A DNA stretch of 63,818 nt, counting the filler, from Kipferlia bialata (taxonomy: Eukaryota): the NCBI GenBank assembly GCA_003568945.1. It is 4 parts of 4 records of this genome, joined end to end, with 100 filler letters (N's around TTAATTAATTAA, not from the genome) between each part and the next. Parts side by side here need not be neighbours in the genome. Positions count along the whole stretch, not along the records: positions 25,963 to 57,951 come from BDIP01000094.1; 3 more parts are not named here. One strand, 5' to 3'. Below, in pieces: positions 25,863-49,334 of the stretch; position 1 is the first letter of the stretch, and the number at the start of each line of letters is the position of its first letter. The notes beneath the pieces are model-generated. The model was not told where the DNA came from, did not search any database, and saw nothing but the letters and a program-made list of their open reading frames with translations. Both the position numbers and the translations under genes were made by a program.

Positions 25863-25962
25863 NNNNNNNNNNNNNNNNNNNNNNNNNNNNNNNNNNNNNN
25901 NNNNNNTTAATTAATTAANNNNNNNNNNNNNNNNNNNNNNNNNNNNNNNNNNNNNNNNNNNN
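25863..25962. other. Artificial assembly spacer (N44-TTAATTAATTAA-N44)
   Basis: 100-nt N block with a 12-mer that gives stops in all six frames; identical at three places. Confidence 0.97.
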
Positions 25963-26232: not shown

Positions 26233-29200
26233 ATGTCACTGGTCGTGTATGACGTGTGTGGCCTTCTTCTACCAGCAATGCCAGCTCCCTTAGTCACACG
26301 ACTGTCTCGACTGCTCCAGGAGTATCCTTCTGTTTCAGTCCTATCCCCTCCAGAGAGAGTCAACCTCTACAAGGAGCTCTGTGGAGTAGCAACCCCTCAT
26401 CAGCTTGCGGCCCACTTCTCGTGTTCCAACCCCACTAGGGACACATTAGCCTTTGTTCGAGGATACCATGCCTACGTTGACCACCGTTGTTCCTGCACTG
26501 AGGTAGTTAGGGCCCCTGCGGATGGGACTGAGGCGGCACCGGCAGTGACAAGTGACCTTCTCATCCTTCAGGTATGACAAGCAAGTTGACTATTCATGAA
26601 TCATCGTACACGGTCTCATTATCCACCCACTGATGCCCAGCCCGCAATCCTAGGTGACAGTGAGGAGGGGCAGACAGTTAGGACGGTCGAGACAACAATG
26701 ATTGAGTCGATATCGACCAAGAGCCTCTCGTCAACAGTACATACCCATAGCAACAGCCTGGGAGACAGGGACGTCACAAGCAGGTTCATAGTGACCCAGC
26801 CGGCAGCGGAGCGTATTGCCATCGTAGAATCTCTCCTTGAGGCTGGATCTGTGCCAGTGTTGCTCGAAGGTACTAAAATGATGATCCTACACGGTATTCA
26901 ATAATCATACATGTCAACTCCTTTGGACATCTTGGGTGGTACTGGGCTACATACAACATAGTTAGACATCACAAGAGTGTCTCTCCTTCTCACTATGACT
27001 AACCCAAGGCCCCACTGGCACAGCCAAGACGTCTACTGTGTGTGAGCTCGCCAGAAGGAAGGGGCAGCGGCTGGAGAGGTTCAATCTCTCGGAACACACA
27101 GCCACAGCCAATCTTCTAGGCCGGATTGAAGTGACGGCCAGTGAAGACAGACCCTTCATGTTCAGAGAGGGGGCATTCACAAAGGTATATCACCATCAGA
27201 AATTGTCACAGTATCACTCGATACCAACCAGGCTGTCTCATGCTCACTCCAGGCATATGAGAAGGGCTACTGGCTGCTCCTGGATGAGCTCAACCTCGGC
27301 GGCCAGGGGGTGCTGCAGTGTCTGGAGGCAGTCCTGGACAACGACATCCTCGCCCTCGACACCCTCGGAACAACACGAGAGATCCCAAGGTATGCGGTGA
27401 TGTACATCCCTCCACCCCACACACAGAACTACACTATTGAGACAGTCCCACCCCAGGCACCCAGACTTCCGTCTCATCTGCACCCAGAACCCATCCTCGG
27501 GGTCCTTCAAGGGCATGCGCCACGAGCTGCCCCCTGAGTTCCTGAGCAGGTTCAGGAAGATCATATTCCCTGACCTAGGTATCAGTAATCGACCTTGATA
27601 GACCTGTTTCCTCTCTACACGATACCATCAATCAATACCTCCTGCCGTCTCCCACCCCAGACCATTCCGAGATGACAGCCATCGTGCAGCACATCCTAGA
27701 GGGCGGCCAGTACCCCAAGGCGAGGGGTATGGCATCCACCCTGGCCTCCTTCCACCAAGATGCAAGTAGGCTCACCTGCGATGGCATTATGACGGTACTC
27801 ACACTGAGGGAGATGAAGCTCTGTGCCGAGATCATTGCACAGAACCACCGTGCCAATGTGGGTGAACTTGTGTACACCGTGTACGGGGCCAGGTACAGTG
27901 CCAATCATGAGGGGATAGCCAGAGCCCTGCTCAAGAACGGATTCCGCAAGGGGCGTGGGGCCATCACTGCTACACTGCCAGTGCCTAGTCTGTCTACAGA
28001 GGATAGAGGCCGGGTTCCAGACTACCTATACCTCACAGCTGGCCTCGAGAGGTCCCTCTCTCTGGGGCTACACGCAGCCAGACAGGGAAGACACGTCCTG
28101 TACTTCGGCAAGAGTGGGTCAGGTACAAGTGACCTCATTCACTCCTATACATCCTCGTACTAGTACCATAACCACCTCTCACTGTAAATGCACCCACCCC
28201 AGGTGTGTCTGCCCTCGCCAGACTGACAGCCCGTCTCTTGGCTGGGGACCGAGACCCCTTCTGTCTCATTGTCACCCCGGACACCACCATAGACGACATT
28301 GTGGGGTATGGGGACTAGTTATAGTGATACAGAGTGTCGAATCCCCCCCCCCATCCCACCACCTCACCACAGCCACATGGTGCCTGCCCATACACGACAC
28401 TCCAGGGACGAGGTGACCCAGCCGAGTATGAAGAGCACAGAGCTGCTGAAGTGGGAGTCCGGTCCGGTACTGGCCGCAGCACAACAGGTGGGGGGACAAA
28501 TACCAGTGTCTCTGCTATACGTGCATCATATCCTCTGACCCCAGGGAGTGGGGTGTGTCCTGGACAACATCAACCAGGGGGAGAGCACCACCCTCGAGAG
28601 ACTCAACCCCCTCCTCGAGACCAACATAGTCCTGGACAGAGAGACCCCAGTGTTCGACGCCTCAGAGTTCTCGGCTGAGAGTCAGGAGCTGGGACCGGGG
28701 TTCCGAATCTTCGCCACTGCTACCCTGGATGACAAGTACGTTTCATGGGACTACACGCTTCAGTACATACACTCGTCCGTCACTCTTTGGACTGACCGAC
28801 TCAACCCTCTCACCCAAGGAAGCTCGCCCTCTCTCCTGCGTTCATCAACAGATTCAGTGTGGTGAGAGTGTGCGACCAGATCGACCTCTCCCACAAGGCC
28901 CAAGCCAAGGCCCAGATCGAGGGTATAGCAAGGGCCACCCTGACCCAGGCCCAGGTCCGTGTGACCATCCCCAAGATACCTAAGGCAAGGGAGGAGGCAC
29001 AGGAGGCAGGTCTATCTGGACCCCAGACACAGTCCAACACCCCACCTGCTACGCCAGCCGAGACCCCTGTCCCCCTCCCCCACGCCGTGTGCGCCATCTC
29101 TGTCCAGAGTGACTCCGAGGGCTCAGAGTATGAGCAGGAGGAGCACACAGACTCAGAGGAGTCAGACAACTCGGAGTCCAGCAGCAGCTCAGAGAGTGAG

Positions 29201-32200
29201 AGTGAGTCAAGTGAGTTTGAGATACCACAGAGTGATGAGGATGGGGCCATGGAGCATGAGAGTCCCATGGTGGGTGGCACTGTAGACCCATCCGACATTG
29301 GAATAGGTCTGGTTGGCATCGGAGGGGAAGAAGAGCCAGAGGAGAGCTCTGAGGACGAGTACGTCATCCCCGTGACCAGACGGCCTGTGGATGAACTGGT
29401 GCCCCTCGTCGTCGAGTGCTTCGGCAAGTTCAGGGCCGAGAACAAGACAGTCAGGAACCTTGTGAATCTGTGCCGCGGGGTGTCTCGACTGGGGGATGTC
29501 ATTGAGGGAGCAGCCCACCTGACTGTCCTGGCCACCATGCTCAGTCCCACTGGCATCAGCAGGGAGTATAGCATCCCAGACGGAGACAGGAAGGTCCTGC
29601 TCGAGTCAGTTGAGGAGGGCTATGAGACTGAGCGGTTCTTCTACAAGGGGGCCGCGAGTGTGGAGTCCCTCGTCTGCATGGTGGCAGGCGTAGACATTGT
29701 GCACAGCCCTCTGCTCATCGAGGGCCCGGCTGGCATTGGCAAGTCAGAGTGCGCCAGGTTCTATGCCAGGGCCAGGAAGGGCAAGAACACACAGCTCATG
29801 TCTCTGACATGCAGTGCAGACACAAGGCCAGAGCACTTCTTCGGCCAGGCCATATCCGCCGGGGGCGGCTTCTCCTTCAGCCCTGGCCCAGCTGTCCTGG
29901 CCATGGAGAGGGGCCACGTGCTGTGTGTGGACGAGCTCAACCTGTGCGCCCCGTCCATCCTCCAGGCCCTGCTCCCAGTGCTGGAGGCACAGCCAGGGGA
30001 GTGCATCCGAATCCCAGGCCGCAGTGAGCCTCTGGCCGTCCACCCCGACTTCGTGTTTGTGGCCACCCAGAACACATTCTCAGGACACGGGAGACAGCGA
30101 CTGCCGCACTCCCTGCTGTCTAGGTTTGTGGTAGCAAGAGCCAACCCCCTCACAGAGCAGCAGTTGACTGCTATTTGCACACGCATCCTGCGCCCCACCC
30201 TTGACACCCTGCCTGACCAACTGACAGCTAAGAGGCTGTCGTCGTTGATCACACAGGCCAACGCACCAGCCTCGGCAAAGAGCAAGCCATACCTGTACCC
30301 ACATGCCTCTCTGACACTAAGGGACATCAGAAGGTGATGACCTGTCACATATTTTACACTATCCTACATGCAAGGACTTGATACACCTAGAACAATCTCT
30401 AACAGCAGGCTACTGAAGCGTCTGGAACACCCCAAGGTGTGGCTGCCGTACCAGGTGTGCACCTTGCTGACCCAGAAGGTATCCCACCGGCTCACAGACA
30501 TCAGACGCAACCTGGTGGATCTCGTTGCCACCTGCTTTGACTGTGACGCAGAGGCCCTGATGAAATACCAGGAGGGAAAGGTGGCAGTCAGTATGGATGC
30601 GACTGGATCTGCCACTCTGACCAAGGGACCAGACACGGCACGTACCAGAACTAGACCGAGACACTATGTGGGACTCAACCTGGTGAACCAGCCCCAGCCC
30701 CTGCTGCAGGCCCTCTACCAGCTGGAGCTGTGTCACGCAGAGGAGAACATCCTCCTGGTAGGCGGTACCAGCTACAAGGGTCTGATCCTGACAGAGATAC
30801 TGAGGTCGAGGGGAAAGGAGGACGTCGAGGACATCTCACTCACAAGAGAGACCACCACAACCCTTCTGGCAGGGTCGCAGACCGTCAACAACCACTCTCG
30901 TGCTATGCTGGTATTCTTGGATCTGCTCCAGGTTGCCGCCCGGCGCCTGGGTGGTCCATTGTGCAAGGTTGCCGCTGAGGCCCACCACCTGGCAGAGACC
31001 ATTCAGAGCAGCACAGGTCTGGACAGGAGCGGGTACGAGGCCATGATCAACCAGGCACACGAGGATGCCACACGCCTACTCGACGAATTCACCAAGGATG
31101 TGGTGTCGGGTCAGAGCGTCGTCGCCTACAAGAATCAGGAGTTCATCGAGAATGCCCTGAACAACGCACTGCGCATAGTCAAGCCCCCATGCAGCCATGA
31201 CAGTGTACCCCAGGCAGACTCGGCGCTGAGGCAGCTCGTGACCATATTCAGCATAGGGCGCTTGACTCGTGCTGCAGTCTTTGGGACCCCCCTCATCCTG
31301 CGCAATGTGGCTCTACCGGCTGCTTCTGTGCTGGAGAGGATGAACCCCCTTCTCGAGATGCCGCCCACCTACACACTGCCCGAGGACGCAGCCTCCACAA
31401 TCACTCAGAACAACGACGCCACAGTCCCAGTCTGTAAAGGGATGAACGTGCATGCCACTGCAACGGAGCGCCAGCTGAACGACCTCTCCCACGCCACCCG
31501 CAGCCGATTCACTGAGATATCGGTAGCGCCATACACGGAGTCTGACGTGCAGCAGGTGGTGCTGGGGGTGGCTGAGGATGTGTTGCAGACCAAGGGGTGC
31601 AGGACTCCGCCAGATACAGTGGCGTCCCTCATCAACTCCAAGGCCCTGCTAGTCCGCCAGGACTCCCACCTGTCACTGAAGCAGGTGCTGTGCTGGACAA
31701 GGCTGGCCGCCTCGCTGGTGAGCACTGGCATGGACGTGCCCACCGCAGTGTCTGTGGCAGGGGTCAAGGCGGTGGCAGACAGAAACAGCAAGAAGTGGTC
31801 AGAGATGGTGAGGCACATGGGCCTCGACACCATCACCCCCGCCCTACAGCAGTATGCCCAGTGGAGACAGAACCCGAAGGCGAACGACACGTTTATGCGG
31901 CAGAGCCTTGAGAAGACCACCCTCAGGTCAGGGCAGCGCGTCACTGCACCCTACTCTGGGGCGAGAATGAGAGCAGCGGCCTCATCTGGGGCATATGACT
32001 TTGACGAGTACACCAAGACGCCTACCCTGCTCTACCTTCTGGATACCATCATAACCTGCGTACAGGCCAACGTCCCTGGTATCCTGAAGGGACCGCCTGG
32101 GCTGGCAAAGAGCAGTGCCTTCGAGGCCATCCAGAGGGCGACAGGCCACAGGGTGACCAGACTCAACCTCTCCAACTCCACCACTGTGGAGGATCTCTTT

Positions 32201-35200
32201 GGGAGGGTGATGTCGAGTCCAGAGGAGGGCGCCATATCATTTGAGGTATAAAACACATCCACTAACATACTTTCACAACTGAAACCACCTCTCTCACCCC
32301 AGTTCCAGAAGGGCGAGCTGACCGATGCCATCGAGTGGACACCTGAGTCTGAGGACAAGGATAGCCTTAGCCCCATCGTGCTACTCGATGAGCTGAACCT
32401 GGCCCCTGCCGCAGTCATTGACGCCATCACGCCTCTGTTTAAGCCAGGGACCAAGCGCCTGCTGCTCCCTAGCGGCAACGTGATGCCACTGAGGCACTTC
32501 CACCTCTTTGCAACTGTGAATCCAGCCTCGTCTTCGTCAGGAAGAGGCGCTCTAGACAGATCCCTGACAGACAACGCAGTCCTAGTGGAACTGCCTTCAT
32601 ACCGGACTCCAGAGGTCGTCGCTATAGCACACGATGTGCTAGGGTGTGTGCCATACTTCCAGACAGAGGGTAGGCTGCAGAGGGCTGTGGAGGCTCACTT
32701 TGCGGCAGGGCAGGTGATGCGGACCACCTCATCAGGCTCAGTGACTCTGAGAGAGCTCATCAAGATGCGGCAGCTGGTAGAGTCCACAAAGTCTTCCCTT
32801 CCACTTGATGTCCTCCTGCGTCTACTCTACGTCTCTCCAGTCCAACAGCCAGAGACTAGAGAGAGACTGACCAGGGAGCTGGGCCTGCGTGTGGCCAATG
32901 CCGACATCCCCAAGGCCATGGTGCACTACAACGACAACACCTACTCTGTTGGGCACCTCAGGCTGGAGAGAGGGCCATACACACAGATGACCTCAGAGTA
33001 CCCTCTCTACGAGACTGTGTCCTCTACCCAGCTACGCTACATGCAGGACGTCACTGCCGCAGTGTGTGCTAGCAGAGTATGTCTGCTGCAGGGCAACTCG
33101 GACTCCGGCAAGACATACATCGTCAGGGCACTGGCCGCCTTATCCGGCCATAAGCTCAACATCGTACAGCTACACACCGACACCGACACCACCAGCATCA
33201 CTGGTAGACTGGAGCCCTGTATGCCCCAGACAGACAGGGTGCGGAGAGTGCTGGAGGAGGTAGAGACTCTGGTGACAAGCCTCACTAGCCGACTAGTGGA
33301 GAAGACACCCCACAAGACCACCACAGAGGTAACTTGGCCTGCATTGCTATCACTGCTGTCTGAACTGTGGTCTACTGAGACAAGTGGTGCTACGGTAGCC
33401 ACCCATCTTGAGACCCTTGTCCACAGCCTGTCGTTCAAGGAGGGCACCGAAGAGGCCACTATTACTCATGCACTAGGGACAGCGGCTGAGGAGCTGGGTA
33501 CACACACCAAGGAGATGTCTATGCGGTTTGAGTACAGGGACTCGCTCCTGATCTCAGCAATGCGCAAGGGAGAGTGGGTCCTCTTTGATAACATCCACGC
33601 AGGTGAGGGTACTGGGAGGGGATACTATGTACTACCATACACTAACTATCACATAACTCAAGCTCAACCCAGCTCCCAACGATGTCGTTGAGCGCCTCAA
33701 CTCCCTTGCTGAGGAGAACCCCACCCTGACAGTGTACGAGCAGGGGACAGGGCACAGATTCAGCATGGATGCCGAGGACCCCAAGTACCGTATATCGCCC
33801 AACTTCCGTCTCTTCCTGACCGCTGACAACTCCCGGTCCTTCCACAGCGGGTCTGTATCGGGCGCCCTACTCTCCAGATGCGTGGTGGTGTCAACCGAGC
33901 CAACGATCATGGAGGGCCTGAGCTGTGTTGGGATCATCTTTGCTCTGCTGCGCCGCCACATTGTGGAAGACACGGCTCGTGAGGTATGGACAGCTATTTC
34001 TGAATCTCTCATAGAGACACTGATGCCAGGTCGCATTCAAGCTCGTGCACGCCTTCCGGTCGATCTGGAAGAGTGAACGGGTACAGTCGACACAGATATC
34101 ATTCAGAACCCTCCTCTTCACAGTTCGTGCCTTCCTCTCTTTGTACCGGTCCAACGCAGACATCGGACAGTGTATGGGGAAGGCTGTGTACCTCGCCCTC
34201 CTGTACAGTAACACAGAGAGGACAGTGGTACAGCCACTAGTGCTGGCTGCAGTATCCAAAAGAGCAACTGAAGTGGAGAGATCCCTTCTGGCTAGTCGGT
34301 TTGGCGACCAGTCCCACAGACTCCTACCCCTGTACAGACGGCTGGCCAGAGTGCAGGCCTCCTTCCTCTGTGGTGTTCCTCAGGAGTTTTTGGCACCATG
34401 TATCAGTATCCTGCTCTCTGGACAGGCCAATGGTCCAGTCCCAAGTGACATACTGCTGTCACAGGTGGCAACAACGGTAGCGAGGGTCCAGATAGCCAAG
34501 GCAACTGTAGCCTCCGTCAAGGCATACACCCACTCCATGCTAGTTGCCATCAGAGACGGAATCAAGGTGGAGGACGGGCCTGAGGTTGTTGCGAGACTTC
34601 GCAAGACATGTACCTTGGCTAGACATGTAACCAGGTCTGCCCCAAAGAAGAGCCCCCAGAGAGATGCCGCAGCCCTTCTCTCCAGCATATACCCCATCGT
34701 AACATGCCTGACCGAGCTGTCAGAGGCGTGCTCTGACGAGCACGGCAGCTTCAGGGTCTCCCAGCTCCTCAACGATCCCTCCGTACCAGCAGAGGTCCAG
34801 TCAGCCGCTGCTAAACTACACACCAGCACCATATGTTTCGAGGCATGCTGGGAGGCCGAAATCCCCGCAATAGCGTTTGACAAGTGGCTTCATGCTCTCT
34901 TTGCGCTCATTGACAAGAAGAACCCACAACGGAATGCATTTGTGAGTGCCGTCCTGGAGTATCTGATCGACCCCTCCAACAGTGAGTTTGGCAGTGACAG
35001 TGAGACAGTGGCCAGGGTCGGTGCAGCACTCAAGGCAGGGTGGCTAGTGGACATGGTGTCCCTGTGCCGGCGCCACCCAGAGTCCGTGGTGCGGCATCCC
35101 TATGTATCCCAGAAGAAGTGCCAGTCGGTGCTGGCTGAGAGTGAGACCCAACCTGGAGCCATCCACATCTTCCTATCCGCCAAGGACGGGATTAAGTGGG

Positions 35201-38200
35201 CAGCCGTCCAGACGACAAGCAGCTATATCACCTGTGACACCCGGCTCTTCACTGAGGCAACACACACCTTCACCCGTCATAAGCCTCAGGACGAGGACGT
35301 GTGTGAGCACATGGTCAAGTGCAACGGGTCCCGGTGGCAGTGGGAGCCCATGGAGTATGACGAGGCCTCGCAGACATACACCCTGACCAAGAGCTATGGG
35401 AGGATAGAGGAGCCTCTCACCGAGCACTTCATCATCAGGAGAAACCGTGACCAATCTGACACCGCTCTGGTACAGGAGTCCATTGGGAAGGTAATTGGTA
35501 GACTATTTACACCTCTCTTGGAATGATGTATTTCAATGTGTCCCATCTGACGGTAGGTATTCGAGGAAGGATGGAGGAAGGACAACGTTGTCGACATCCA
35601 GCCTGTTACAGTGACCCACACCCCACACGTATTCGTGATGCGCCTCCTGGATCTCAAGGTTGAGAGGGAGGAGCTACTGAAGAGTGAAGATGCCACCCTG
35701 GACTACCTGTCCAAGGTGAGGGAGGGCACCCCAACCGAGTCCATGGCTGTTGACGTAGAGCCCCACATCGGGGCCAAGCTGCTCTACTCCAAGATCATCA
35801 CCTGTAAGCCCAACCCCAAGTGGGTACCTCTTGAGTCCCTTGTCTTGAGTAGCCTTTCTCCGGTCAAGAGGGCACTCTGGTCAAGACTCCTGTGCTCTTC
35901 TGGCACTGTAAGGAACACAACCCAGGCCACAGGCGACATCTCAGTCCAGAGCCTCCTGCATGACTGTGTGTGTGCCCTCGTACCTATGCCAGGGATAGAG
36001 TGGGCAGCACACGAGATCCCAGCAGCTGTCATTGTCTCCACTGTCAACAACATCACACAGGAGCTGGAAGAGTATGAGAAGCAGTCCAAGCGAGCTCACA
36101 AGGCAAGGGAGAAGGGGAAGACGGCCAAGATACCAGACCTAGACCAGCTGACAAGCCTAGTGCTGTCCCACACGACAAAGACGGCGGAAGAGGGTATAAC
36201 AGCTGTTAGGACCACATGCAGCGCAGGTGCAACTGCAGGGCTGGTGCAGAATCTTCGTCTTGCATTCGACCGTGTGTTCAGTCGGGTAGCGGCCGTTCCC
36301 ACTCTAAGACCCGTGCAGAGCCTCATGGCCATGGCCACCTGCCTGGATGGGTACGATGAGTATCTGCGGACAGAGCACTCCCGCAGTCAGATGTCCAACG
36401 CCAACAAGAAGCTATGTGCCCAGCTTGACACTGTCAAGGAGGCAGCACAGCGTTTAGGAGTCTCATGTCCAGAGATGAGGCCAGCCCTTGCCTCCCTCTC
36501 ACGTCATATTGAAACAACCTTGTCGACCAACCAGAGTAGCGACGACGCCAAGCACAAGTGGCTGAGCAAGAGGCTACTGGCGGCACAGAGCCTCTATGAG
36601 TCGATAGAGACAGTCTCAGCTCAAGTAGTGTCAGGGGTGTCGAGGGACATTGCTTCAGTGAGTTGGGGGAAGACACTCCCAAGGACACCAGATGGCTACT
36701 CCGCACTGGACGTGCGGGTGCTCACTGTGCAGACACTGGCGCGACACGTGCTGTCGACTGACGTGATCAGAGAGTTGGAGTCAGCGAGACAGAACACATC
36801 ACGGGTCATGGAGCTGCTTCCACAGCTCCGCAAGTCGCCACTTGCAGAGTTGGGAGAGCCACTGTGTGATATTCTCACTGAGAACCACATGCTCTCCAAG
36901 TCACATATCCTAATGCTCTCATCGGCTGCCAATGCAACCACGATATGTGAGCTGCATAGGGCAGGGGCTCCACTAACGTCATCGTCCATGATAGAGTGTG
37001 TCGCCCCCTCTCCCCCTGTCACGGAGGAGTGGGCACACGTTGCATCACAGGAGCTGCTCAAGATACTCCCTCACCCAGAGCGCCACGCCATGTGTGTCCC
37101 TCACTATACGCCAAGAGATGTATTGGCATTGGTCCACCTCAACGCCGGCAGTGACCAGACTCCTATGGCAGGGCCACTGTTCCGCCACACACTGACTGAC
37201 CAAGTTGTGCCTCGGATGAAGTGCCTCAAGGCTGACCTAGCTAAGGGTGTTACGTCCTGTACACAGATGGCAGACAGGATGATCAGTGCAGTGCGGGAGG
37301 AGCTCTATGAGTACACTAGCTCAGCCATATCCGAAGACGTTGGGGATATCGAGGCCCTGACTGGCTACAAGACAGTACCAGACACCTCATTCATGGCAGA
37401 CTTGATTGACGGAGTGCTGGAGGCCAGAGACATAGCCATTGAGCTGGACAAGAACAAGTCCACTCCTGTGTCTGACACTGACACGTCGGACATGGATATA
37501 CTACAGTGTCAGTTCCCCCTCTCTGTGTCTGACACTGTCACATACAGACAGGCCCTGGACATGCAGCCCCATCTGTCTCAGTGGCTATACTACAACACTT
37601 CAGTGAGGGATGGTCTGGCCCAGGCCATCCACCGATGCCACTACCCGGAAGGTACAGTCAGTGCGGCACTCCTGCCATACAGGGTGGCCTGTGGGTGCCA
37701 GCCCACCACTACCACCCACAAGGGTGAGTGGTTCAGAGGCCTGGCCTCCTGGGCACATGCCAGGGTCACCCTCGGCAATGAGTGGCACCACCCAGATGCA
37801 GCCCCACACAGGGTGCCTCTCCTCCTCGGAAAGAGCATACTCCCTGCGGACACATACTGTGACATGGTTGTCAGTGGCGTCGAGCGTATCGACGATGTGG
37901 TTGAGTCCTTGAGACATGAGCTTGGAACCAATGCTAGGGAAAACGCCGTGGGTGACAAAATCGAGTCCATAGTACGCGGTTGCATCTCTGTAGCCCTTCT
38001 CGGTACCCCTCAGGGCGAGACCACCCGGCACCAGCAGATCCACTCTCCCATAGGAGAGATGGCCAACCCCCTGACCCAGCTTGTCAACCTGCAGGGTGTA
38101 TTGGTGGCAGACCTACAGGCCATTCACACAGAGGAACAGCGCAAGTTGAAGGAGAGGAAGAGGACTGCAGAGAAGAGACTTGAGCAGAGCACCGGGGGAA

Positions 38201-41200
38201 TCCGGACTCTGCTGGGAGAGGTTAAGACTGCATACCAGACAGACATATCTGCAATCAAGACCAGGCAGAATGGGGAGCACCAGCGCAGAGTCAACGAGTG
38301 GCTGGCTGACCATAACAGGGTCCAAGTGGCAATTCAACGTACAGCATCTGATAGTAGTGCCTACCAAAGGTCTCTCTCCGTCGTTGCCGAAGCCTATGCA
38401 ACAACCCTTCTACCCAAGCCAGGTGACAAGAGTGCGATGATTGCCATTACTAATGATATTCCACTCCTGTTGAGAGCCTCCGGTGTTCTAAGGGCCGCCG
38501 CCAATACCCTTCCTGCTGGCAAGGTGATCTCCATTCCCCCTGAGTCGAGATGCCATCACTTCGAGGTCACCTGTGACCATGCCCTCACCAATCCTCGACT
38601 GGAGTGCCACTTCACATGCCCCCTCAGGGTAGAGGCAAGAGGGGCAACCACCACCACCACAGACCACTCGACCTCTGCAGGCATCCCTCTTCAGTACACA
38701 CGCCCGGGACACGCAAGGGATGTGGTGGTCACAACAGCCGGAGTGACAGGAGACACCACCTTCACTGTTGCTGTGGCAGGTACTGATGGGGAAGAGCAGA
38801 CAGGTCAGGATGGCTTCTGCCAGCTGACCAGGCTGACTGGCATGGCTGCTATGGGTGCTGTGGGTGTCCGAGAGGCAGCACTCAACAGGGGCCTGGTGCT
38901 GACACACACACAGCTACTCGATGTCGAAGTTCCTAAGCCATTTGGAACCGTGATGTCACTCGCTACGGCGCTCAGTCAACACGAGTCGCAGTATCCACCT
39001 AGCAGACTAAACCAACTGGATGCAGCTTGCCGTGAACACCTAGAGTACCCACCAAGGCCACAGGCCCCTACCACACCGGCTCTTACGGTACTCTCGCACC
39101 CTAGGCAAGAGATTGGCTGCCTACTAGACGCTGATATTACCTACGTCAAACAACGTTCATTGAACCAGAACGCAATGTTCCAGCTGAAACGAGACCTTGT
39201 GGCACTACAGCATGTGTTCAAGAACCTCACAGAGCCACAGACCCAGGCCTTCACTCTCTTCTCTGCTGCGATGCGAGACCATGCACTGGCAATTGATGCA
39301 GCCGTGAAGAACCTTGATGCCGTGTTGGAGTTTGCATCAATCCCCAAGAAGGGCTACAGTGCCATTGTGGCACACTCCCTCTCTCCAGTGCTGCCACCTC
39401 CCACCAAGCCCAGAGGCCTGACGGACTGGCGTTGGACCAACAAGAAGAGGTCCTTCCGGCCAAGCAGCGTGAAGAGGGGAGCTCTGCGCTCTGCCGTTGT
39501 GTCAGATGGGTCTGAGGGTCCCCTTCTGAGCATGCCCCGTGTGATTGCAGACCTTGGGACATACATCATGGGTGTCAACAGCGAGAGACATGTCGGTTCC
39601 CTTACGATCAACAACAGCGCCAAGGAGGATGTGGTCATTACTCTTGCCCTGACTGCTGGGTCCATGCTGGAGGTGTATCCCAAGGAGGTCACTCTACCTA
39701 CACGCAGCACGGCCACCTTTGAGTACAGCCTGACCTCTGACCCAGCCACCGCTGCCCCTATCACCGCAACTGGCTCTATCACTGTGGCATACCCCAATGG
39801 AAAGGGGAAGCAACACACAGTGCCCCTCCTTGTGGGTCTTAGGGTGCAGCCATTCTACGTCAACGTGACCTCATCCGAGCCACTATGTCAGAAACTCGAC
39901 AGCTCCGCCCTGGGGTGCTATGCACCAGACGGCACAGAGGTCAGGCTGGCACTCTCTGTCCCAGAATACCACACCTTCCCGGCGTTTGCAACATCTGTCT
40001 CATCAGGGCCTCGCAACACTGCGCACCAGGGCTGCTTCAAGTTCGGAAGTACAGAGAGGAGTCTGACGCTTGCTGGATATAGCAGAGAGGAGACTAACCT
40101 CAACGCATCCGTCACGGTGTCCTTCTCCCCGACTATACACTTTGACGCAGAGTACTCATCCCACCTGGGCCGGATGGGCACTGATCTCTACCAACTCAGG
40201 CAGTGCAGCAATGGCTCATGGGAGACAGACAGAGTCTCAACGGGTACCACCATCGAAAGGCGGGGCAATGTGAAAGAAGACAGCCTTCACTTTGTCGTTG
40301 TCAACAGATGCGTCCAGGGGGACACATATCGCCTAAGTCTATCTGACTCTCTTGCCTCTAAGACAGCCCTTCGCGGGGGACCCACCAAGAACCTCAGAGT
40401 CGTAGTCCCCCCCGGAGAGGCAGATGTGTTCACGTTGGACCTCAGCTCCAGGAAGCAGCTCTCTGGAGTCCTCTCTGTGACCTTGCACTCAATCAGGTTC
40501 AAGGTACAGTACACTGGAAAGAGATCCCTTGCCATAACCGGCACACGACAGAGACGCCTAGGCCCCTATAATCCACACACGAGAACCTACACCGAAGAGA
40601 ACAGGGACCTCATACGCATCACAAACTCCACACCTGGCCCCTTGTCTAGTCACCGTGGATACTTACTCTTTGTGAGTGAGACCGGTGTTGAAAGACGGAT
40701 CGGGATCAGCTGGGAGAGAATCAATGCCCACAAGCATAATGACTTCCAAGTCAAGGCCACTGACTACGGCACCTACTACCTTGTCTGCTCTGATGACGAA
40801 GATGCAGCCCACAAGAGCCATGTGGTTCACATGAAGAATCCCAACTCTCCACGTCAGGATGTGTGTTTCGACTGCCGTTATTATACGTTTGCCGGGGACA
40901 GACTTGACTCCGGTAGCACGCACACCACCTTCAAGCCCATGCATGTTGAGATTCGGGTGAAGAGATCTTGGAACTCCCCAGAGGTCAAGGGGGTAGTGCC
41001 ACTCTATCTCTTTGACATACCAATGCTCTCATCGGAAGAGCTAGAGGCTATGTCAAGAGTACAGAGGTGTCCTGACTCATTCTGTGTTGCACTGTGCGTC
41101 TCCCTCATTGCAAAGATGCTATTTACGCAAAGCGAGAACCCTTACGGCATACGCCTATTCACACACATGAGCACAGCGCTCACAATGGGGGATATGACTA

Positions 41201-44200
41201 TTCCCACCAGATACGAGTCCACCCTACTCAAGTTCTGCCAGGCAGCTACACTACTTCCCAGGAACAACCCATTCACCCCATCAACACCTTGCAAGGTACC
41301 TGCACTTCCAGACATTGCCACAGACCCCAGTGGGCACGGCCGAGAGTTCACTCGGTTTGTGACAAGTGTACTCCGTAATCTTCCACGCCGACAGATCAAT
41401 GATCGAGAGAGCAGGTTCTCTCACACCTCCTTCATGCTAGGTGTCCTCTCATCCAGAGTGTCAGGGTCGGGTGATATGAGATCCTTTGCCAGAGCATTCG
41501 GGCTCAGTCTTCCTGAGTCCCTCCTCAACCCAACCATCATACACGACAGGGGGGATGGAAGTGAGGTCATTCAGAATCTTGTGCGCAAAACTGACACACT
41601 CCTGAGGGCCCTACACCTGATGAAACAGGCCCAGGAGGTGGTGAAGCTCAGACAGTCATACGGACAACTGAAGATGACCATGCTTCCAAGTGTCCGTGAT
41701 ATGAGCACACTCAGTTCATCAGCACTAGCGTCCAAGAAGGCCGCCATTTTGAACACCACCCACAGCAACACAGGCCCCTCCGACCCACCCTCTAGGGATG
41801 ATGCACTTAGACTTCGGCAGGTTCGAGCAAACATTCAGGACTACAGAAGGATGTCTCAGCGCCAAGCAGACGAGAGCCAGCGCACCTTGGCCGCTCTCAA
41901 CCACTCGGACCCTCACACTGAGTGGGTGCTCAACGCACAGGGCCTCCACCCTGCTGTAGCTGTGAGTGCCCCAGAGGTAGAGGACGTGAACCTCTCTCTG
42001 AAGACTCAGGAGGAAGACTCAGACGCAGTTGCTTCCGACTCCGTCATTGAGACCTACAAGCGAGGTCTGTTGGAGATTGAGAAACTACAGCGAGACACTC
42101 TCGCCTTCCATGCAGCCGTACTCAAGGCGCTAGCCCAGCAGGCATCCATCTTCCCTCTCTGCCTGTCTCAAATGCTGGGGGACCCTAATCTAGCTCTGAG
42201 TGTCCCAGACGTCATTGTGGAGTACTTCAGAGTGGCCATCAGCACCGTCGAGTCTCTCTCACAGAGTGGCCTCTCTTGCTTCAACAACAGGGAGAGGATA
42301 GCAGAGGTGGAGCAGTTCCTTCTCGGTGATGTGGCCTCGAGACTAGCTGAGGCAGAACTCCCCGTCCCCTGCCACTCCACTATCAGACAGGGACACCACT
42401 CCCAGCAGAGACAGAGCGCATTTGTGGTACCTTGTCCAAGAGGCATCGCAAGCCCATGCAACGAGAGCTGGTCCACCAACCCCAAGAACAGCGATGAGGC
42501 ACCCGACCAGTCTCCTGCTGAGCACAACCAAGAAGTACTGGCCCAGATGGGGTCCAAGGTTGATGTCTCTGCACTCCAGTCTCGTATTAACTACAAGCCT
42601 GTGGTAGTCCCCACAACAATCACCCCCAAACGAGAGGAGAGCGACACAGCCACTGCCCTGCGCTCGCTGCAGGAGGCAGACGCAGCCCGCCTAGCAGCAA
42701 ATGCTATTGAGTACACACACATCGACGTCAGCAGACCAGCTGGCATAGGGAGAATGGCAAGGGAACCAGGTGCAAGGAACAGACACAGGCCTGCCATGCA
42801 TCTGAGACGTCTAGGGGACTGGGAGGAGGAGACGGCAGAGGGGTCGGACAATGAGTCCGATGATGTCGAGGATGCCATCAGAGGAGACAGAGACCTAGAC
42901 ATCGACAACCAGCCCCCTACTGTTGAGGCCCAAAGACTGACAGTGGATGAGTATGACAGGCTGTATCCAGAGGACGTCACCCCCGAGCGCATGCTGAGCC
43001 ACCTCTTCAAGCTGAAGCCCCCTATGAGTACCGACATGGCATCAATCGGAAAGATGACCCCAGCATCATTCCCACCAACACTCCACAAGGCAACTGCAGC
43101 CACTCAAGCTCTAATGAACTGCTGTGTGCCTGTTGCAGACAGAATGGTGAGCAAGGTCCTGGTTGGGCTCCCAAGTACTACCTCTCTGGCCTCCCATGAG
43201 GTATGCCTCCTGTTGGACCTGTCAAGGACAGTGGACGACAGAAAGAGAGACATGCAGCATGTCGTGGCCCTCTCTCTCATGGAGGCTCTGTCCAGCCTCG
43301 AGGTCGCCTTCTCAGTCGCAGTCTTCAGCCACAGGGAGTTCTTCTACGTCCTCAAGGACCCCTCGACTGTGTACACAGCAGAGACGGCACAGAGAGTGTG
43401 CGATGCCTTGAGGGTCAAGCGCAAGTCAGCCAGCTATGTACTAGATGCTGTCGCTGCCGCGGCCACACACGTTGCTGGGAAGAGCAACTGTTTCTCTGCT
43501 AGGCCATGCACCGCCCGCTCTATTGTGATAGTGTCTGACCTCTACTCACCACACATTGTGCTTGAAGAGGCAGACTGGGCAATGGTCTTCTCCAAGATTA
43601 ACGCACATGTGGTGTTTGCGCAGCTCGAATCCTCATACAGCGACTCATCTCTCGGAGCCCGCTTCCAAGAGAGAGTCAGTGCAGTGGTTGATAAGGCTGT
43701 CAACACCTCCTCCTCCGCTGAGTTGATAGTCGTGCCTGAGGACGTCATGAGTACAGGGAGTGAGTCAGTGGGACGCATAGACACTATGCTGGTCACCGCA
43801 CTGCACAGCGTACCCATACGCATCGGGTGTCAGAAGAGTGCAGCTCCGGCGCCCAAGGTGCCTCTCAGGAGTGGCCTCGCAGATAGCAACGGGACCACCC
43901 TTGATGCAGTGGGGGCAGACGCCCTCCCCAACATCGCCCTTGGGAGGGGTCAGACAGGCGTATTCTCCCAGGCAGCCACCATTGAGTCCTTGGCTGACGG
44001 TGTTGATATCAACGCCAACATAGAGAGCCATCTCGAGCCGGGTCTGTGCAGTGTGGAACCAGTCTGGGGAGACAGGGTGACACCTCCCAAGCGCAAGGCT
44101 GTGAGTAGAGCCATGGCAGGGATAGCACGCACCACAAGGGCTAGAGTGCAGGCTGCCACCTCGGCTGTAGGCACTACCATCATGCCCCCCAACGTGGCCA

Positions 44201-46647
44201 CGAAGTGGTGTGCGGTGGAGTATGGCACCATCATCGACATCCAGAGGCTGCTGCGGTTCATCATGACCAGAGGCCAGGAGAGGAAGTTCTACCTCTCCAA
44301 GCAGGGTGGGTACAAGCGCATGTACAGCTGCAGTGTGGTCATAGACCTCAGCGACTCCACTATGTGTGCAGCCAACAAGGCACACACCTTCACCAGCGCC
44401 ATTCTGCTGCTCCAGACCCTAGCCATGCTGGAGTTGCCTAGCGTGGATGTCCTCCTATCCACAGGGGCATCGACCCGTGTCCTGGCCTCTGGCATCAGGG
44501 CCAGCGACATGTTCGACAAGACCCACCCCCACCCTCTCTTCCCTGCCCTCTTCTCAGCCATGCAGGAGAGGCACGACGGGGCATCTATGGGGTCAGCAGT
44601 GGGCCATGCAGTGCAGATGCAGGATGTCCGGCCTGCAAGTGGCGGCAACAGCCGCCTGGTATTCGCCCTGACAGATGGGATGGTCTCATCCGACGCTGAG
44701 AGAGCGAGACTCCTCACCGCCCAGAGCTATGCCCGAGCCCACAGCATTGAGGTGATAGGGGTGGGAGTCGGCATGCGGCCTGTGTTCCTAAGCAGAGTAT
44801 ATGCCAGCTGCTGCTTCGCACCCAGCCCATACGACATTGACAGCGCCATCTGCGGTGTCTTCACCCCCTCCGCCCTGACAGGGGATGAGACCATAGAGGA
44901 GGTGTGCCAGGAACTAGCACTAGACCCCCAGACCCTAGAGGCCGTGGATACTACGAGGAAGGAGGCAGCCGCTAACACTGACCTCGTATCGACTCTGAGA
45001 GACCACGTCATCACGGAGGACTTCTACAACCAGAAGTCCCTGAACCTGAGGGCGGAGGATGGCACCTGCAACCCAGACGGGAACGAGTACGACCTTGGCA
45101 AGTGCGGCTACTTCACCGATGTCCACGTGCTTGTGTGCATGTTCTACACATACAGAGACAACAACAAGGACAAGCAGGTCACCCCCGCATGCTTCAACAC
45201 AGGGGCCAAGGGAAGTGACTCCAGTCCACGAATCAAGCTGGAGGAGAAGGGCTTCAGCGTCACAGTGGTGCATGACTACATGACAGCCATCAGAGCCATA
45301 TGCAGCGGCAAGTACAGAGTCACATACGTGGTGTGCAGCCCTGGAGATGGCATTCTCCCCAAGGAGGCAGCTGACCCCAAGAGCTCCAACCTGGTGGGCC
45401 AGTTCACAGACTACCTCATCAGGTGAGGGACATAACCCCCTTGATAGTATATATCAGACCGTCCTAACAACAGGTATTGGAACACAGGGGGCAGCGTGGC
45501 CTTCTTCGCCGACAACGAGCCCTTCTACTACGAGGCCAACCTGTTCCTCGAGAGGGTGCGGTTTGGCACTGAGAGGACAAGACTGCAGCTGACAGGCAAC
45601 TATGTTGGCAAGAAGCAGCTCTCTGAGCGGAAGAGCAGCTCAGCCAGCACTGGCACATTCAATTCTCCCACCAAGGTATACCGAAATACCAAATTGTCCC
45701 TATATGATCCTCTAACGACTCAGGTGAAAGTAGAGGGACGCCACTACACGAGGGCCACCTTAAGCGCTGGTCTGCGTTCCATCTATGAGGGCCACACTGT
45801 GTGTTACCCTAAGCCCGGACCCATCGCTCCCTTTGAGGCCTTTGCATACAACAGCAACACAGAGAGTGAGCAGCCGACCATTCTGACCTATGACCCCCCC
45901 TGCACCTCCTCCACAGGCACCATTGTGGTGGACACTGCAGCCTCCAGGCTGTTCTATGAGTACAGTGCAGAGGGCACGGCCCGGTACATATCCAACATCG
46001 CCGTGTGGTCACTGAGGCTGGCCCACCTGAGGCACGAGCTGGACCTACAGGATATCACACGCCCCCTCCCAGCCATCACAGTCAGAATCGACCAGACAGT
46101 CAAGTGGACATGGCCCACACCAGTGTCCAGACCCGTGCACCACATACTGATACTGGATGACAGTGGGAGCATGAGTGGGAGCTGGGCCAGCCTTATGAAG
46201 GCTGTCAACAACTTCCAGACGACCAGAGCAAAGTCCAGCCCTCAGGACAGGTGGACAATCATCAAGTTCAGTGTTGACGCCACAGCAGTGTGTGTCAACG
46301 AACCGATCACAACGGTCCCATCCATCAGCTTCGGTTGTGGTGGAAATACCAATCTACACCTGGCAACCCGAGAGTGTGATGCCAAGAAGGGGTCATACCC
46401 GTCGTCACACACCACTCGTGTCCTCTGCTTCACTGACGGAGGAACCAATGGGAAGGAGGAGTGTCTCGCATGGGCTACCAAGGTACACTCTCCTCCAATC
46501 AACTGGACCGTGGATGCCATTGGGTTTGCATCAGCACCCCCCGAGTTCATGTCCTCTCTGGCCCGGAATGGGGGAGGGCAGTACGCATTTGCAAGAACCC
46601 CCGAGGAACTCACCTCTCACTTTGAGGAGTTTGCCATGGCTGACTGA
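26233..46647 (+). CDS. Giant midasin/MDN1-like AAA+ protein (six AAA modules, long linker, three vWA domains, GATase-like module), ~6,429 aa
   Basis: Exons 26233-26571, 26641-26869, 27009-27184, 27253-27389, 27457-27578, 27661-28122, 28203-28305, 28373-28487, 28545-28735, 28819-30333, 30409-32245, 32303-33602, 33673-33983, 34030-35490, 35557-45422, 45474-45675, 45724-46647 sum to 19,290 nt, and every splice phase is consistent. Midasin-type motifs: LLEGPTGTAKT, FREGAFTKAYEKGYWLLLDELNL, HPDFRLICTQNP, GPAGIGKS..VDELNL, FEYRDSLLISAMRKGEWVLFDNIHAAPNDVVERLNSLAE, and the pre-MIDAS motif IMPPNVATKW..IDIQRLLRFI..KFYLSKQGGYKRMYSCSVVIDLSDS. Confidence 0.9.
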
Positions 46648-47889: not shown

Positions 47890-48630
47890 CTAGGCATACT
47901 TGCGAGTCCACTCCCTGGCAGTTGCCAGGTACCGCTGGTAGTCTCTCTTGTACAGGTTGGCAGCTGGGGTGGACTTACAAGATGGATGGATAGTGTGAAG
48001 GACATGTGTATATGTTATGTATATATGACAAGGGGATCTGGTCAGTACCTACAGCCGAGAGGGGGTCGTCTGCATTGGCATCACTGAGCAGAGAGGTGAG
48101 GGAGAGGAGCACCTTGGAGATGGAGAGGACAGGTGACCAGGCCTCCTGGAGGGGAGTGACATAATTTTGGAATATAGGAGGGATTATTGTATGGATAGTA
48201 TACAGAGTGAGGGTGAAGGGGGGGGAGGGGGGACATGCTACCTTCAGGATGTCGAGGCAGATGGCCCCGCTCTCACTGATGTTGGGGTGGAACACCTTGT
48301 TGATGAAGCGGAGCTGGGGGGGCTGGGGGTGAGGAGGTATCACATATGAGAGGTACATACACGACATAAATGCACCTTGAATGGATAGTCATGGGAGAAT
48401 GTGATGGAGAGGCGGAACACTCCTCCCTCATATGGAGAGGATGGGGGACCCATGATGCTAGCCGTCCAGTGGTATAGGTCCGACTCATCGTTGGGGCCTG
48501 CACTCACTGGTGTTAGAATAGGGAATCGTAGACAAACAACACCCAAAGAGGTCGATTGCCCTACTATACCTAGGGCAACGGGTTCCCTGTGTAAGTCCCG
48601 CAGTTCCTTGGCCAACCGCCTCGCAGACAT
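47890..48630 (-). CDS. Ubiquitin-conjugating enzyme E2, Ubc4/UBE2D-like (5 exons)
   Basis: Spliced product [150 protein letters not shown] motif and catalytic Cys are present. Confidence 0.95.
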
Positions 48631-48800
48631 GTCGATGGCTGAGAGAGGTCGGCATGTCTCAGCTCTGCCAGTACTGTAGGGTAGTGAGTACTTTACAGTG
48701 TGATCTGTTTTGTCTGGGTTTGACTGAGGGGTTCAGCCACACAGAGTGTCTCGCTTCTCTGTACACACCTCTGAAACCTGAGTATCTAGTAACCCATACC
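48631..48800. promoter_or_regulatory. Probable compact bidirectional promoter (170 bp) between the E2 and SGF29-like genes
   Basis: Divergent ATGs at 48630 (-) and 48801 (+). Inferred from geometry only. Confidence 0.55.
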
Positions 48801-49334
48801 ATGGCTCCCTCACCCTTAACTCCCCTTCCAAGGGAGCAGAGTGTCGCAGCGTTTGTGCAGCTGGCCGGAGATGACACCAAGAGCTGGATGCTGGGTCTCG
48901 TGCGCAGCTATAGTGTGGCCGACAACCAGTACGAGATTGCAGACATAGCTCCCGAGAATGAGAAGAACCCCGACATCTACCACGTCCCTGTCTCGCATGT
49001 CATCAAGTTCCCCCAGGACGCAGGTGGGGACCGGTTCTCAGCCGGGGAGCTGGTGCTTGCCCTGTGGTTTGATCACGAGCAGCTGCAGTGGACCAGCATC
49101 CTGTACCCGGCTGTGGTGCTGACCAAGCACGAGGCACAGGACGGGGCATACGTGGTGGCGGTGCGGTACAGCGGGGACCAGGCCCTGAACTACGTGCAGG
49201 AGCAGCGTCTGCTGAAGATCCCCCCCTCCCTGTACCACGAGTGCCTGGGTCTGTTTGATGCAGTGGCCCAGAGCAGCAGCCTTCCAGACGACGTGGAGGA
49301 GGCCAAGCTGGAGCCGTCCTCCAAGAGGCGATAG
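48801..49334 (+). CDS. SGF29: SGF29-like tandem Tudor (H3K4me-reader type) protein, intronless, 177 aa
   Basis: VAAFV..SWMLGLVRSYSVADNQYEIADIAPE..YHVPVSHVIKFPQ..FSAGELVLALW..TSILYPAVV..YVVAVRYSGD..YVQEQRLL matches the SGF29 double-Tudor pattern (WILAEVVSY..YEVDD..VIPLP..F....VLALYP.TT.FY.A). Recognised by eye. Confidence 0.75.
   Translation: MAPSPLTPLPREQSVAAFVQLAGDDTKSWMLGLVRSYSVADNQYEIADIAPENEKNPDIYHVPVSHVIKFPQDAGGDRFSAGELVLALWFDHEQLQWTSILYPAVVLTKHEAQDGAYVVAVRYSGDQALNYVQEQRLLKIPPSLYHECLGLFDAVAQSSSLPDDVEEAKLEPSSKRR

What the first reader, a model, noticed from the sequence alone, without database searches (positions are those of the whole stretch)
26233..46647. ~6,400-aa midasin-like AAA+ machine with a non-midasin multi-domain tail: candidate undescribed MoxR/vWA-type system in one polypeptide
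Seen: one spliced frame of 19,290 nt with short N-term, six tandem AAA modules, ~3,000-aa linker including a beta-rich Ig-like region, vWA, vWA, an alpha/beta module and a third vWA. Established: canonical midasin (Rea1/MDN1) is six AAA + helical linker + D/E-rich stretch + a single C-terminal MIDAS domain, and it remodels pre-60S ribosomes; bacterial MoxR ATPases work with separate vWA adaptors. Inference: this is a midasin paralog repurposed for another job, with three possible substrate-docking vWA domains and an extra enzyme-like module. Candidate roles are remodelling of a different complex or a giant AAA defence/quality-control function. Function cannot be read from the sequence.
Basis: partly seen in the sequence, partly recalled or inferred. 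Interest (0 to 1): 0.9.

Follow-up and report, generated by a model that had tools for sequence, protein, structure and literature searches.

The report
Second midasin lineage with rewired motor
This real 6,400-residue protist gene belongs to an apparently unnamed sister family of the ribosome-building motor midasin: it lacks midasin's ribosome-docking insert, keeps a different set of ATP sites and ends in three metal-grip domains, so it likely pulls apart some non-ribosomal target, possibly in cell defence.

Summary
Confirmed: 17 exons, 16 GT-AG introns, 19,290 nt, 6,429 aa without a stop; a public model matches from residue 16. It is no orphan: 157 clusters share the tail, with several paralogs per genome in Tritrichomonas, Blastocystis and Dysnectes, and slower-evolving kin in algae, a thraustochytrid, an alveolate and a rotifer. 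In all trees the family lies outside canonical MDN1; no metamonad MDN1 was available. The ring is rewired. MDN1 has complete sites D2-D5; here D1, D3 and D5 are complete and D2, D4, D6 keep only arginine fingers. MDN1's AAA2 pore-plug/Rix1-binding insert and D/E tether are absent. vWA1 and vWA2 are a duplicated midasin-type MIDAS. The alpha/beta module has a class I GATase-like (ThuA/IFT52-GIFT) fold without the catalytic triad, so it is probably an adaptor. Inferred function: a grip-and-pull remodeller of a non-ribosomal target; defence is the leading, unproven guess. A canonical MDN1 in this genome and a single transcript were not shown. Ten literature searches found no description.

The parts
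26233..46647 (+). Whole gene: 17 exons, 19,290-nt CDS, 6,429 aa. Introns 26572-26640, 26870-27008, 27185-27252, 27390-27456, 27579-27660, 28123-28202, 28306-28372, 28488-28544, 28736-28818, 30334-30408, 32246-32302, 33603-33672, 33984-34029, 35491-35556, 45423-45473, 45676-45723. Alternative start ATG at 26278.
   Evidence: intron 7 junction seen in run X1
26773..27770 (+). AAA module D1: complete Walker A/B and sensor 1; the most conserved module of the family; predicted principal ATPase site, completed by the arginine finger of D2
28020..28963 (+). AAA module D2: Walker A Lys and catalytic Glu lost, arginine finger kept; lacks MDN1's long helix-2 insert (Walker A-B spacing 78 aa against MDN1 median 164)
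29057..29359 (+). Ser/Glu/Asp-rich low-complexity insertion between D2 and D3 (32% D+E, 21% S over 101 aa); not the MDN1 D/E tether by position
29627..30259 (+). AAA module D3: complete motifs (Pfam AAA_5 E 6e-20; best solved-structure match midasin, E 4e-45 for the exon)
30662..31624 (+). AAA module D4: Walker B lost, long helix-2 insert, arginine finger kept
32003..32701 (+). AAA module D5: complete Walker A/B and sensor 1; its own arginine finger is lost, as expected if D4 is dead
33023..33971 (+). AAA module D6: Walker A kept, catalytic Glu lost, long helix-2 insert, arginine finger kept
33972..43143 (+). ~3,040-aa linker with no BLAST match to MDN1 linkers or to any relative held; includes a beta-rich stretch at about 39406-40983 (Ig-like nature unproven)
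43156..43803 (+). vWA1: duplicate of the midasin-type MIDAS domain; first and last metal-site Asp kept
44131..44853 (+). vWA2: midasin-type MIDAS domain including the preceding helix and loop elements; DxSxS and TDG intact
45046..46047 (+). Class I GATase-like (ThuA / IFT52-GIFT-like) domain without the catalytic triad; spans introns 15 and 16
46129..46644 (+). vWA3: C-terminal vWA with a complete MIDAS motif

Best explanation
This gene encodes a member of a separate, multi-copy sister family of midasin whose six-module ATPase ring keeps complete sites at D1, D3 and D5 only, and which likely works as an ATP-driven grip-and-pull remodeller of a non-ribosomal target, most likely in cell-autonomous defence or stress quality control. 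Shown: architecture, paralogy, the motif pattern, loss of the AAA2 insert and D/E tether, conserved MIDAS residues, GATase-like fold without triad, expansions and swapped end domains. Inferred by analogy with Rea1 and MoxR-vWA pairs: (1) the six modules close into one ring; (2) vWA2, and perhaps vWA1 and vWA3, bind an acidic residue of the target through Mg2+; (3) the MIDAS cluster folds back onto the ring; (4) hydrolysis at D1 and D3 (plus D5 in this protein), each fired by the arginine finger of the dead neighbour, moves the ring and linker and pulls the target apart; (5) the GATase-like domain is a non-catalytic adaptor that spaces the grips or recruits a partner. With no AAA2 plug, the ring would not need Rix1 to be switched on. 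The defence role rests only on evolutionary pattern.
For: Paralogy: 33 MDN1 rings are cut off from the family plus 7 slower relatives with support 1.0/100, also under LG+C20 on 23 rows (branch 1.92, SH-aLRT 100); every MDN1 module position is monophyletic and family modules pair with slow-relative modules at D1, D2, D4, D5, D6. Sites: D1 K/D/E/N in 13 of 13 family and 5 of 5 slow rows, whereas 0 of 33 MDN1 have the D1 catalytic Glu; D2 Glu in 1 of 13 and 0 of 5 against 33 of 33; D4 Glu in 0 of 14 and 0 of 6 against 33 of 33; D2 finger 13 of 13, D4 finger 12 of 14; D5 finger 0 of 14 and 0 of 7 against 33 of 33. A further 34 rings repeat D1 and D3 intact and D2/D4 fingers in 34 of 34 (mostly one clade). 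Rea1's live sites are AAA2-5, the n+1 module gives the finger, and the AAA2 insert plugs the pore and binds Rix1 (PMC6286127, PMC6920918, passages). MIDAS Asp conserved 98-100% (first) and 76-93% (last) in all three vWAs. Conflict-like pattern: 7 locus tags in T. musculus, 3 in one Blastocystis, 2 each in T. foetus and Dysnectes; kinase Pfam in 12 of 76 full-length relatives, a C-terminal kinase (P0141), a RING finger (P0104); within-genus paralogs share 32-65% in D3 against 59-71% for yeast MDN1 versus other supergroups. A constant MoxR-vWA core with variable modules is the signature used for conflict systems (PMC7159879, passages); RNF213 is a six-AAA immunity precedent (PMC11549300, abstract).
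Against: No functional data. The window's own protein carries no recognisable effector, sensor, kinase or ligase domain. Parabasalids expand many gene families and metamonad proteins evolve fast in general (recalled), so expansion and rate are weak signs of conflict. Most of the 76 relatives are one clade. No metamonad MDN1 is in the trees, family branches are long and compositionally odd (warnings), and coexistence with MDN1 in one genome was not shown. The basic loop before vWA2 keeps 6 K/R in this protein (MDN1 median 7, subfamily median 3), so nuclear import is not excluded. D5 is dead in 33 of 34 rings of the large clade, so the three-site pattern is not family-wide.
Confidence: 0.45

Rival explanations
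1. Same paralog and same grip-and-pull mechanism, but a housekeeping job: maturing or disassembling one conserved non-ribosomal complex, for example activating a metalloenzyme as bacterial MoxR-vWA pairs do.
For: The core order ring-vWA1-vWA2-GATase-like-vWA is stable across fornicates, parabasalids, an oxymonad and Blastocystis; all named carriers of the GATase-like version are anaerobes (names; lifestyle recalled); nearest solved single-module relatives are CbbQ and NorQ; MoxR-vWA pairs assemble enzyme complexes (PMC7159879 passage).
Against: Patchy presence, many divergent paralogs per genome, unalignable linkers and swapped end domains fit a single conserved client poorly.
Confidence: 0.3
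2. It is a highly divergent MDN1, or a helper of ribosome assembly, that still strips factors from pre-60S particles in metamonads.
For: Midasin is the best known match of ring and vWA2; UniRef labels P0001 'Midasin'; no canonical MDN1 from this genome or any named metamonad appeared among the 120 listed hits; the basic loop is kept in this protein.
Against: It lacks the Rix1-binding AAA2 insert, the D/E tether (0.185 against MDN1 0.36-0.55), the conserved linker (0 hits against 110) and the D2-D5 site pattern; it groups with algal, thraustochytrid and other paralogs from supergroups that have canonical MDN1; it is multi-copy.
Confidence: 0.12
3. It is a ciliary or centrosomal remodeller, related in job to dynein-associated machinery.
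For: The alpha/beta module is closest to the IFT52 GIFT domain among others (Z 15.9); four-vWA relatives carry HYDIN/CFAP65/ASH/Cep192-type Ig repeats (4 of 11 proteins scanned); D1+D3 as live sites recalls dynein (recalled).
Against: The same fold matches ThuA, site-1 protease and OST48 equally well (Z 15.5-16.3, tied); Blastocystis, which has no flagellum (recalled), keeps three paralogs; the window's beta region shows no detectable kinship to those Ig repeats.
Confidence: 0.07
4. The long model joins neighbouring genes, or the GATase-like module is the active enzyme and the ring merely serves it.
For: Only 1 of 16 junctions has read support. The module keeps a Glu (54 of 56), an Asp (47 of 56) and a Cys (42 of 56) that could form an unconventional site.
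Against: Linker, vWA1, vWA2 and half of the module lie in one 9,866-nt exon; 30 of 73 relatives carry all parts in one predicted protein; the triad is absent; the four-vWA subfamily has no such module.
Confidence: 0.06

Closest known systems
Midasin / Rea1 / MDN1
   Same: Six MoxR-clade AAA modules in one chain, with odd modules short and D4/D6 carrying long helix-2 inserts; long linker; MIDAS domain with the same preceding elements.
   Different: Live sites D1/D3/(D5) instead of D2-D5; no AAA2 helix-2 plug; no D/E tether; unrelated and longer linker; MIDAS duplicated and followed by a GATase-like domain and a third vWA; multi-copy and fast-evolving; separate clade.
Bacterial MoxR-vWA pairs (CbbQ/CbbO, NorQ/NorD, RavA/ViaA) and MoxR-vWA ternary conflict systems (PMC7159879)
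   Same: MoxR-clade motor with a metal-site vWA grip; constant core with variable add-on domains.
   Different: One eukaryotic polypeptide with six unequal modules; no VMAP, iSTAND, FtsH or beta-propeller partner detected.
RNF213 (mysterin)
   Same: About 600-700 kDa single-chain six-AAA protein with only some live sites; precedent for a defence role.
   Different: No RING/RZ ligase or CBM20 found here; the ring is midasin-like and the output end is vWA.
Dynein heavy chain
   Same: Six concatenated modules; D1 and D3 as the conserved live sites parallels dynein's AAA1/AAA3 (recalled).
   Different: No stalk or microtubule-binding domain detected; retains vWA; modules score best against midasin.
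GIFT domain (IFT52, OST48/Wbp1, site-1 protease C-terminus) and ThuA-like proteins
   Same: Class I GATase-like fold, Z 15.5-16.3, rmsd 3.0-3.2 over 200-211 residues; no triad.
   Different: Only 11-14% identity; no Pfam match at sequence level (P0124); never described, in the searches run, between vWA domains of an AAA motor.
Bacterial single-chain six-AAA proteins of Omnitrophota (P0230, locus L001)
   Same: Six MoxR-type modules plus a midasin-type vWA in one chain.
   Different: Its modules all score best as odd-type and fall outside the eukaryotic module clades; HEAT repeats; single vWA.

Membership tests
Midasin/MDN1 | Six tandem MoxR-clade AAA modules in one chain | tested here: met
Midasin/MDN1 | Catalytic motifs complete in AAA2-AAA5, absent in AAA1 and AAA6 (PMC6286127) | tested here: not met
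   complete in D1, D3, D5; lost in D2, D4, D6
Midasin/MDN1 | Long AAA2 helix-2 insert (pore plug, Rix1 binding) | tested here: not met
   Walker A-B spacing 78 aa; 33 MDN1 125-199
Midasin/MDN1 | D/E-rich tether before the MIDAS domain | tested here: not met
   best 200-aa window 0.185; 113 family rows 0.13-0.305; 103 MDN1 0.36-0.55
Midasin/MDN1 | Midasin-type MIDAS domain with its N-terminal extra elements | tested here: met
   E 0.8 alone; profile E 4e-11 to 6or5
Midasin/MDN1 | MIDAS single and at the very C-terminus | tested here: not met
   duplicated, followed by about 560 aa
Midasin/MDN1 | Conserved stem/middle/top linker | tested here: not met
   0 BLAST hits for this linker; two MDN1 linkers each hit 110 MDN1s
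Midasin/MDN1 | Branches within the MDN1 clade | tested here: not met
   caveat: no metamonad MDN1 in the trees, long branches
Midasin/MDN1 | Basic NLS loop in the MIDAS domain | tested here: inconclusive
   6 K/R here; MDN1 median 7; subfamily median 3
Midasin/MDN1 | Binds Rsa4/Ytm1 and remodels pre-60S particles | not testable with these tools
   needs biochemistry
MoxR-vWA ternary conflict systems | MoxR-clade AAA coupled to a vWA with two metal-site Asp | tested here: met
MoxR-vWA ternary conflict systems | Third core component (VMAP, iSTAND, FtsH or beta-propeller) and effector domains | tested here: inconclusive
   none in Pfam/NCBIfam scans of the exons; most of the linker is unannotated; kinase or RING in some relatives
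Class I glutamine amidotransferase (enzyme) | Class I GATase-like fold | tested here: met
   (pLDDT 87.5)
Class I glutamine amidotransferase (enzyme) | Cys-His-Glu triad (definition recalled) | tested here: not met
   no His and no Cys after the elbow strand reaches 60% in 56 rows; positions assigned from topology, not from superposition
GIFT domain | Sequence match to the IFT52_GIFT family | tested here: inconclusive
   no Pfam hit for relative P0124; Atlas look-alikes carry PF23355 on 21-43% of members; fold match tied with ThuA
RNF213 | RING/RZ E3 module | tested here: not met
   no RING hit in exon scans; one distant relative, P0104, has one
Dynein heavy chain | Stalk with microtubule-binding domain and N-terminal linker/tail | tested here: not met
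   N-terminus about 150 aa; no such Pfam hit

The most novel reading that the evidence does not exclude
Eukaryotes have carried, since before their major groups split, a further class of single-chain six-AAA machine beside dynein, midasin and RNF213. It was lost from the model organisms, fires at alternate sites (D1/D3/D5), and is reused as a modular immune or quality-control remodeller whose multi-vWA head grips targets and whose ends swap kinases and ligases. Its ring may have been assembled partly independently of MDN1's, since D2 and D4 group within each paralog rather than by position (weak).
Probability: 0.35. Interest if true: 0.9.

Novelty: new variant of a known kind. Interest (0 to 1): 0.72.

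Why it matters
The papers read treat dynein and midasin (and RNF213) as the eukaryotic proteins with six AAA modules in one chain. A separate lineage with the opposite choice of live sites, no auto-inhibitory plug and a duplicated MIDAS is a natural experiment on how such rings make force and how dynein-like and midasin-like site patterns arose. It is expanded in gut protists (Tritrichomonas, Blastocystis) that can be cultured, so its target is testable. It also means that automatic 'Midasin' labels on these proteins are misleading.

Tried and rejected
No genome held, so no search for a second MDN1 in this assembly. Word-index search with vWA2 plus half of the module, lengths 647-2000 aa: 0 of 5,998 candidates, superseded. 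Atlas search with the second half of the module: low recognition, unrelated beta proteins, discarded; the Atlas gave no answer for the beta-rich region. Single-sequence fold of the beta-rich region: pLDDT 36, not searched. Profile tests of Ig kinship and of linker kinship were negative. No plasmid match for the module; scans of prokaryote and viral collections for the module could not be run because the alignment had no conserved stretch, so a bacterial source of the tail is untested. No membrane span or signal: best 19-residue hydropathy 1.76. No complex prediction was sent. Literature: 10 searches found no description of this architecture; 'Midasin-like protein' appears once, unexplained, in a Blastocystis SNP table (PMC9896827, passage); the 2002 midasin survey is not held; subscription papers and supplements (for example those of PMC7159879) were not seen and may list the family. 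Neighbouring genes (E2 enzyme, SGF29-type Tudor) give no functional clue.


Full report
Observation. The region 26,000-48,000 is GC-richer than its flanks and holds a chain of + strand ORFs ending in a 3,289-codon frame. 15 of 16 introns are forced by frame or stops. The database protein P0001 equals this model from residue 16; one search lists it as a hypothetical protein of Kipferlia bialata, labelled 'Midasin' by UniRef. Run X1 (RNA only by guess) has one contig that skips exactly intron 7 but keeps introns 8-16, so splicing is supported at 1 of 16 junctions and a single mRNA is not shown.

Relatives. HMMER with vWA1-vWA2-half module against 1.84 billion representatives gave 157 clusters at E<=0.001, 150 listed. 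74 of the 152 proteins then held carry the alpha/beta module. Of 30 looked up, the named ones are Dysnectes (2), Aduncisulcus, Chilomastix, Tritrichomonas foetus (2), T. musculus, Streblomastix, Blastocystis (3), Amoebophrya, Bryopsis and Adineta; all are hypothetical or named by domain. A tail search from P0014 gave 76 proteins of 3,428-7,310 aa among 3,485 candidates; with it T. musculus reaches 7 locus tags. 34 of the 73 new ones have six ordered modules and 30 of these have the whole tail; the rest are partial or scored below my cut-off. Two tails exist: vWA-vWA-GATase-like-vWA (named carriers: metamonads, Blastocystis) and four vWAs without the module (Bryopsis, Amoebophrya and unnamed records). 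Five further six-module proteins (Mesostigma, Hondaea, two EukProt, one Logan) share the ring but gave no vWA hit.

Not MDN1. Profiles of the six MDN1 modules score held-out MDN1s 127-398 bits at cognate positions but this protein 28-140. A concatenated ring tree of 54 rows separates 33 MDN1s from opisthokonts, plants, Archamoebae, Discoba and SAR from the family and its slower kin (FastTree 1.0; SH-aLRT 100; LG+C20 on 23 of the rows, 100, which also warns of long branches and odd composition). With the six modules of an Omnitrophota protein as outgroup (P0230 = L001; earlier notes e1-1124067, e1-1325553, e1-2729480 pointed to such proteins), each MDN1 position is monophyletic and the family pairs with the slow group at five of six positions (147 modules, 172 columns). 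The split therefore likely predates the MDN1 radiation. No metamonad MDN1 was available, which is the main gap. The D/E tether, conserved linker and the three midasin lid Pfams listed for most MDN1 hits are missing.

The rewired ring. In Rea1, AAA2-AAA5 are functional, AAA1 and AAA6 lack Walker B, the next module supplies the arginine finger, and the AAA2 helix-2 insert plugs the pore, inhibits ATPase 10-15-fold and binds Rix1 (PMC6286127 and PMC6920918, passages). My 33 MDN1s reproduce this pattern, which validates the column picking. In the family D1 is complete in 13 of 13, D3 has Asp-Glu in 9 of 14, D5 has Glu in 9 of 14, while D2 (1 of 13), D4 (0 of 14) and D6 (0 of 14) lack the Glu. The fingers follow: kept in D2 (13 of 13), D4 (12 of 14) and D6 (Arg 10 of 14), lost in D5 (0 of 14), which would serve dead D4. 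The slow group shows the same pattern without exception at D1, D3 and D5. In the large clade D5 is also dead (Glu 1 of 34), leaving D1 and D3 (34 of 34). The window's protein has all three. D1 is the most conserved module. The AAA2 insert is gone in all 18 family and slow rows (spacing 60-89 aa against 125-199).

The tail. vWA2 aligns to the Rea1 MIDAS crystal construct including the elements before the first strand (E 0.8 alone; profile E 4e-11), and its profile finds the MIDAS of most MDN1 hits. vWA1 and vWA2 are sister clades to the exclusion of 13 MDN1 MIDAS domains (support 0.935): an old internal duplication. Metal-site residues are conserved in vWA1 (n=143), vWA2 (n=129) and vWA3 (n=109). 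The alpha/beta module folds confidently (43 sequences, pLDDT 87.5) and matches ThuA-like protein (Z 16.3, rmsd 3.0, 211 aligned), IFT52 GIFT (15.9, 3.0, 202), site-1 protease (15.8) and OST48 (15.5), all tied, above true amidotransferases (13.7 and lower) (Foldseek agrees; Atlas leads to IFT52_GIFT/ThuA). The triad is absent; a Glu (54 of 56), Asp (47) and Cys (42) are conserved, so an unusual activity is not excluded. The beta-rich linker part remains unassigned.

How it likely works. Shown: parts, order, paralogy, motif pattern. Inferred from Rea1 and MoxR-vWA systems: the modules form one ring; the vWA cluster grips acidic residues of a target through Mg2+ and folds back to the ring; hydrolysis at D1/D3/(D5) pulls the target; the GATase-like domain is an adaptor. 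Loss of the Rix1-binding insert and tether argues against pre-60S work. Copy-number expansion, fast change and swapped kinase/RING ends fit the constant-core, variable-module pattern of conflict systems (PMC7159879, passages) and the RNF213 precedent (PMC11549300, abstract only), but this protein itself shows no effector, and its host lineages expand and diverge broadly (recalled). My odds: paralog 0.9; grip-and-pull mechanism 0.7; defence or stress role 0.45; housekeeping 0.3; ribosomal 0.12; ciliary 0.07.

Novelty. Ten searches of the held library returned no paper on this architecture. I read passages of PMC3495828, PMC3791482, PMC9896827 and those above; the held first 300,000 characters of PMC7203096 had no hit; all others were seen as listings only. 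No supplements were read. Earlier scan notes held no look-alike by sequence; e1-7450420 describes another eukaryotic AAA/GATase-like/vWA giant, not checked here. Verdict: real, a new variant of the midasin/MoxR-vWA kind, not a member of MDN1; interest 0.72.

Noticed in passing
window 27572-27637: A 56-nt contig of run X1 (depth 9.6) skips 64 nt with CT..AC ends, i.e. a GT-AG skip on the minus strand overlapping intron 5; antisense splicing or artefact.
   Followed up: no
window 47975-48732 (-) and 48810-49334 (+): Intron-containing ubiquitin-conjugating E2 gene (PF00179) head-to-head with an SGF29-type Tudor gene (PF07039) just downstream.
   Followed up: partly
window 25863-25962: Two N runs flanked by short palindromic linkers lie about 270 nt upstream of the start codon, so the promoter region is at an assembly join.
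   Followed up: no
P0198, P0208, P0240, P0271, P0275: Six-module rings of the same paralog clade (Mesostigma, Hondaea and others) with 600-1,000-aa N-termini, very long D4 inserts (median 356 aa) and tails without detectable vWA: possibly further sub-families.
   Followed up: partly
L001:10001-24505: 4,835-aa Omnitrophota protein with HEAT repeats, six or more MoxR-type modules and a midasin-type vWA; used only as outgroup.
   Followed up: partly
relatives: Most unnamed ENA/JGI members lie on contigs only a few hundred to a few thousand bases longer than the gene (16-24 kb), as if transcripts or repeat-flanked genes.
   Followed up: no
P0124: The GATase-like module has look-alike stand-alone clusters of 250-300 aa in rotifers and Myxococcota with no Pfam family; leads only.
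   Followed up: no
P0104 residues 264-308; P0141 residues 840-1029: A RING finger in the linker of a four-vWA relative and a kinase fused after the last vWA in a Streblomastix relative.
   Followed up: partly
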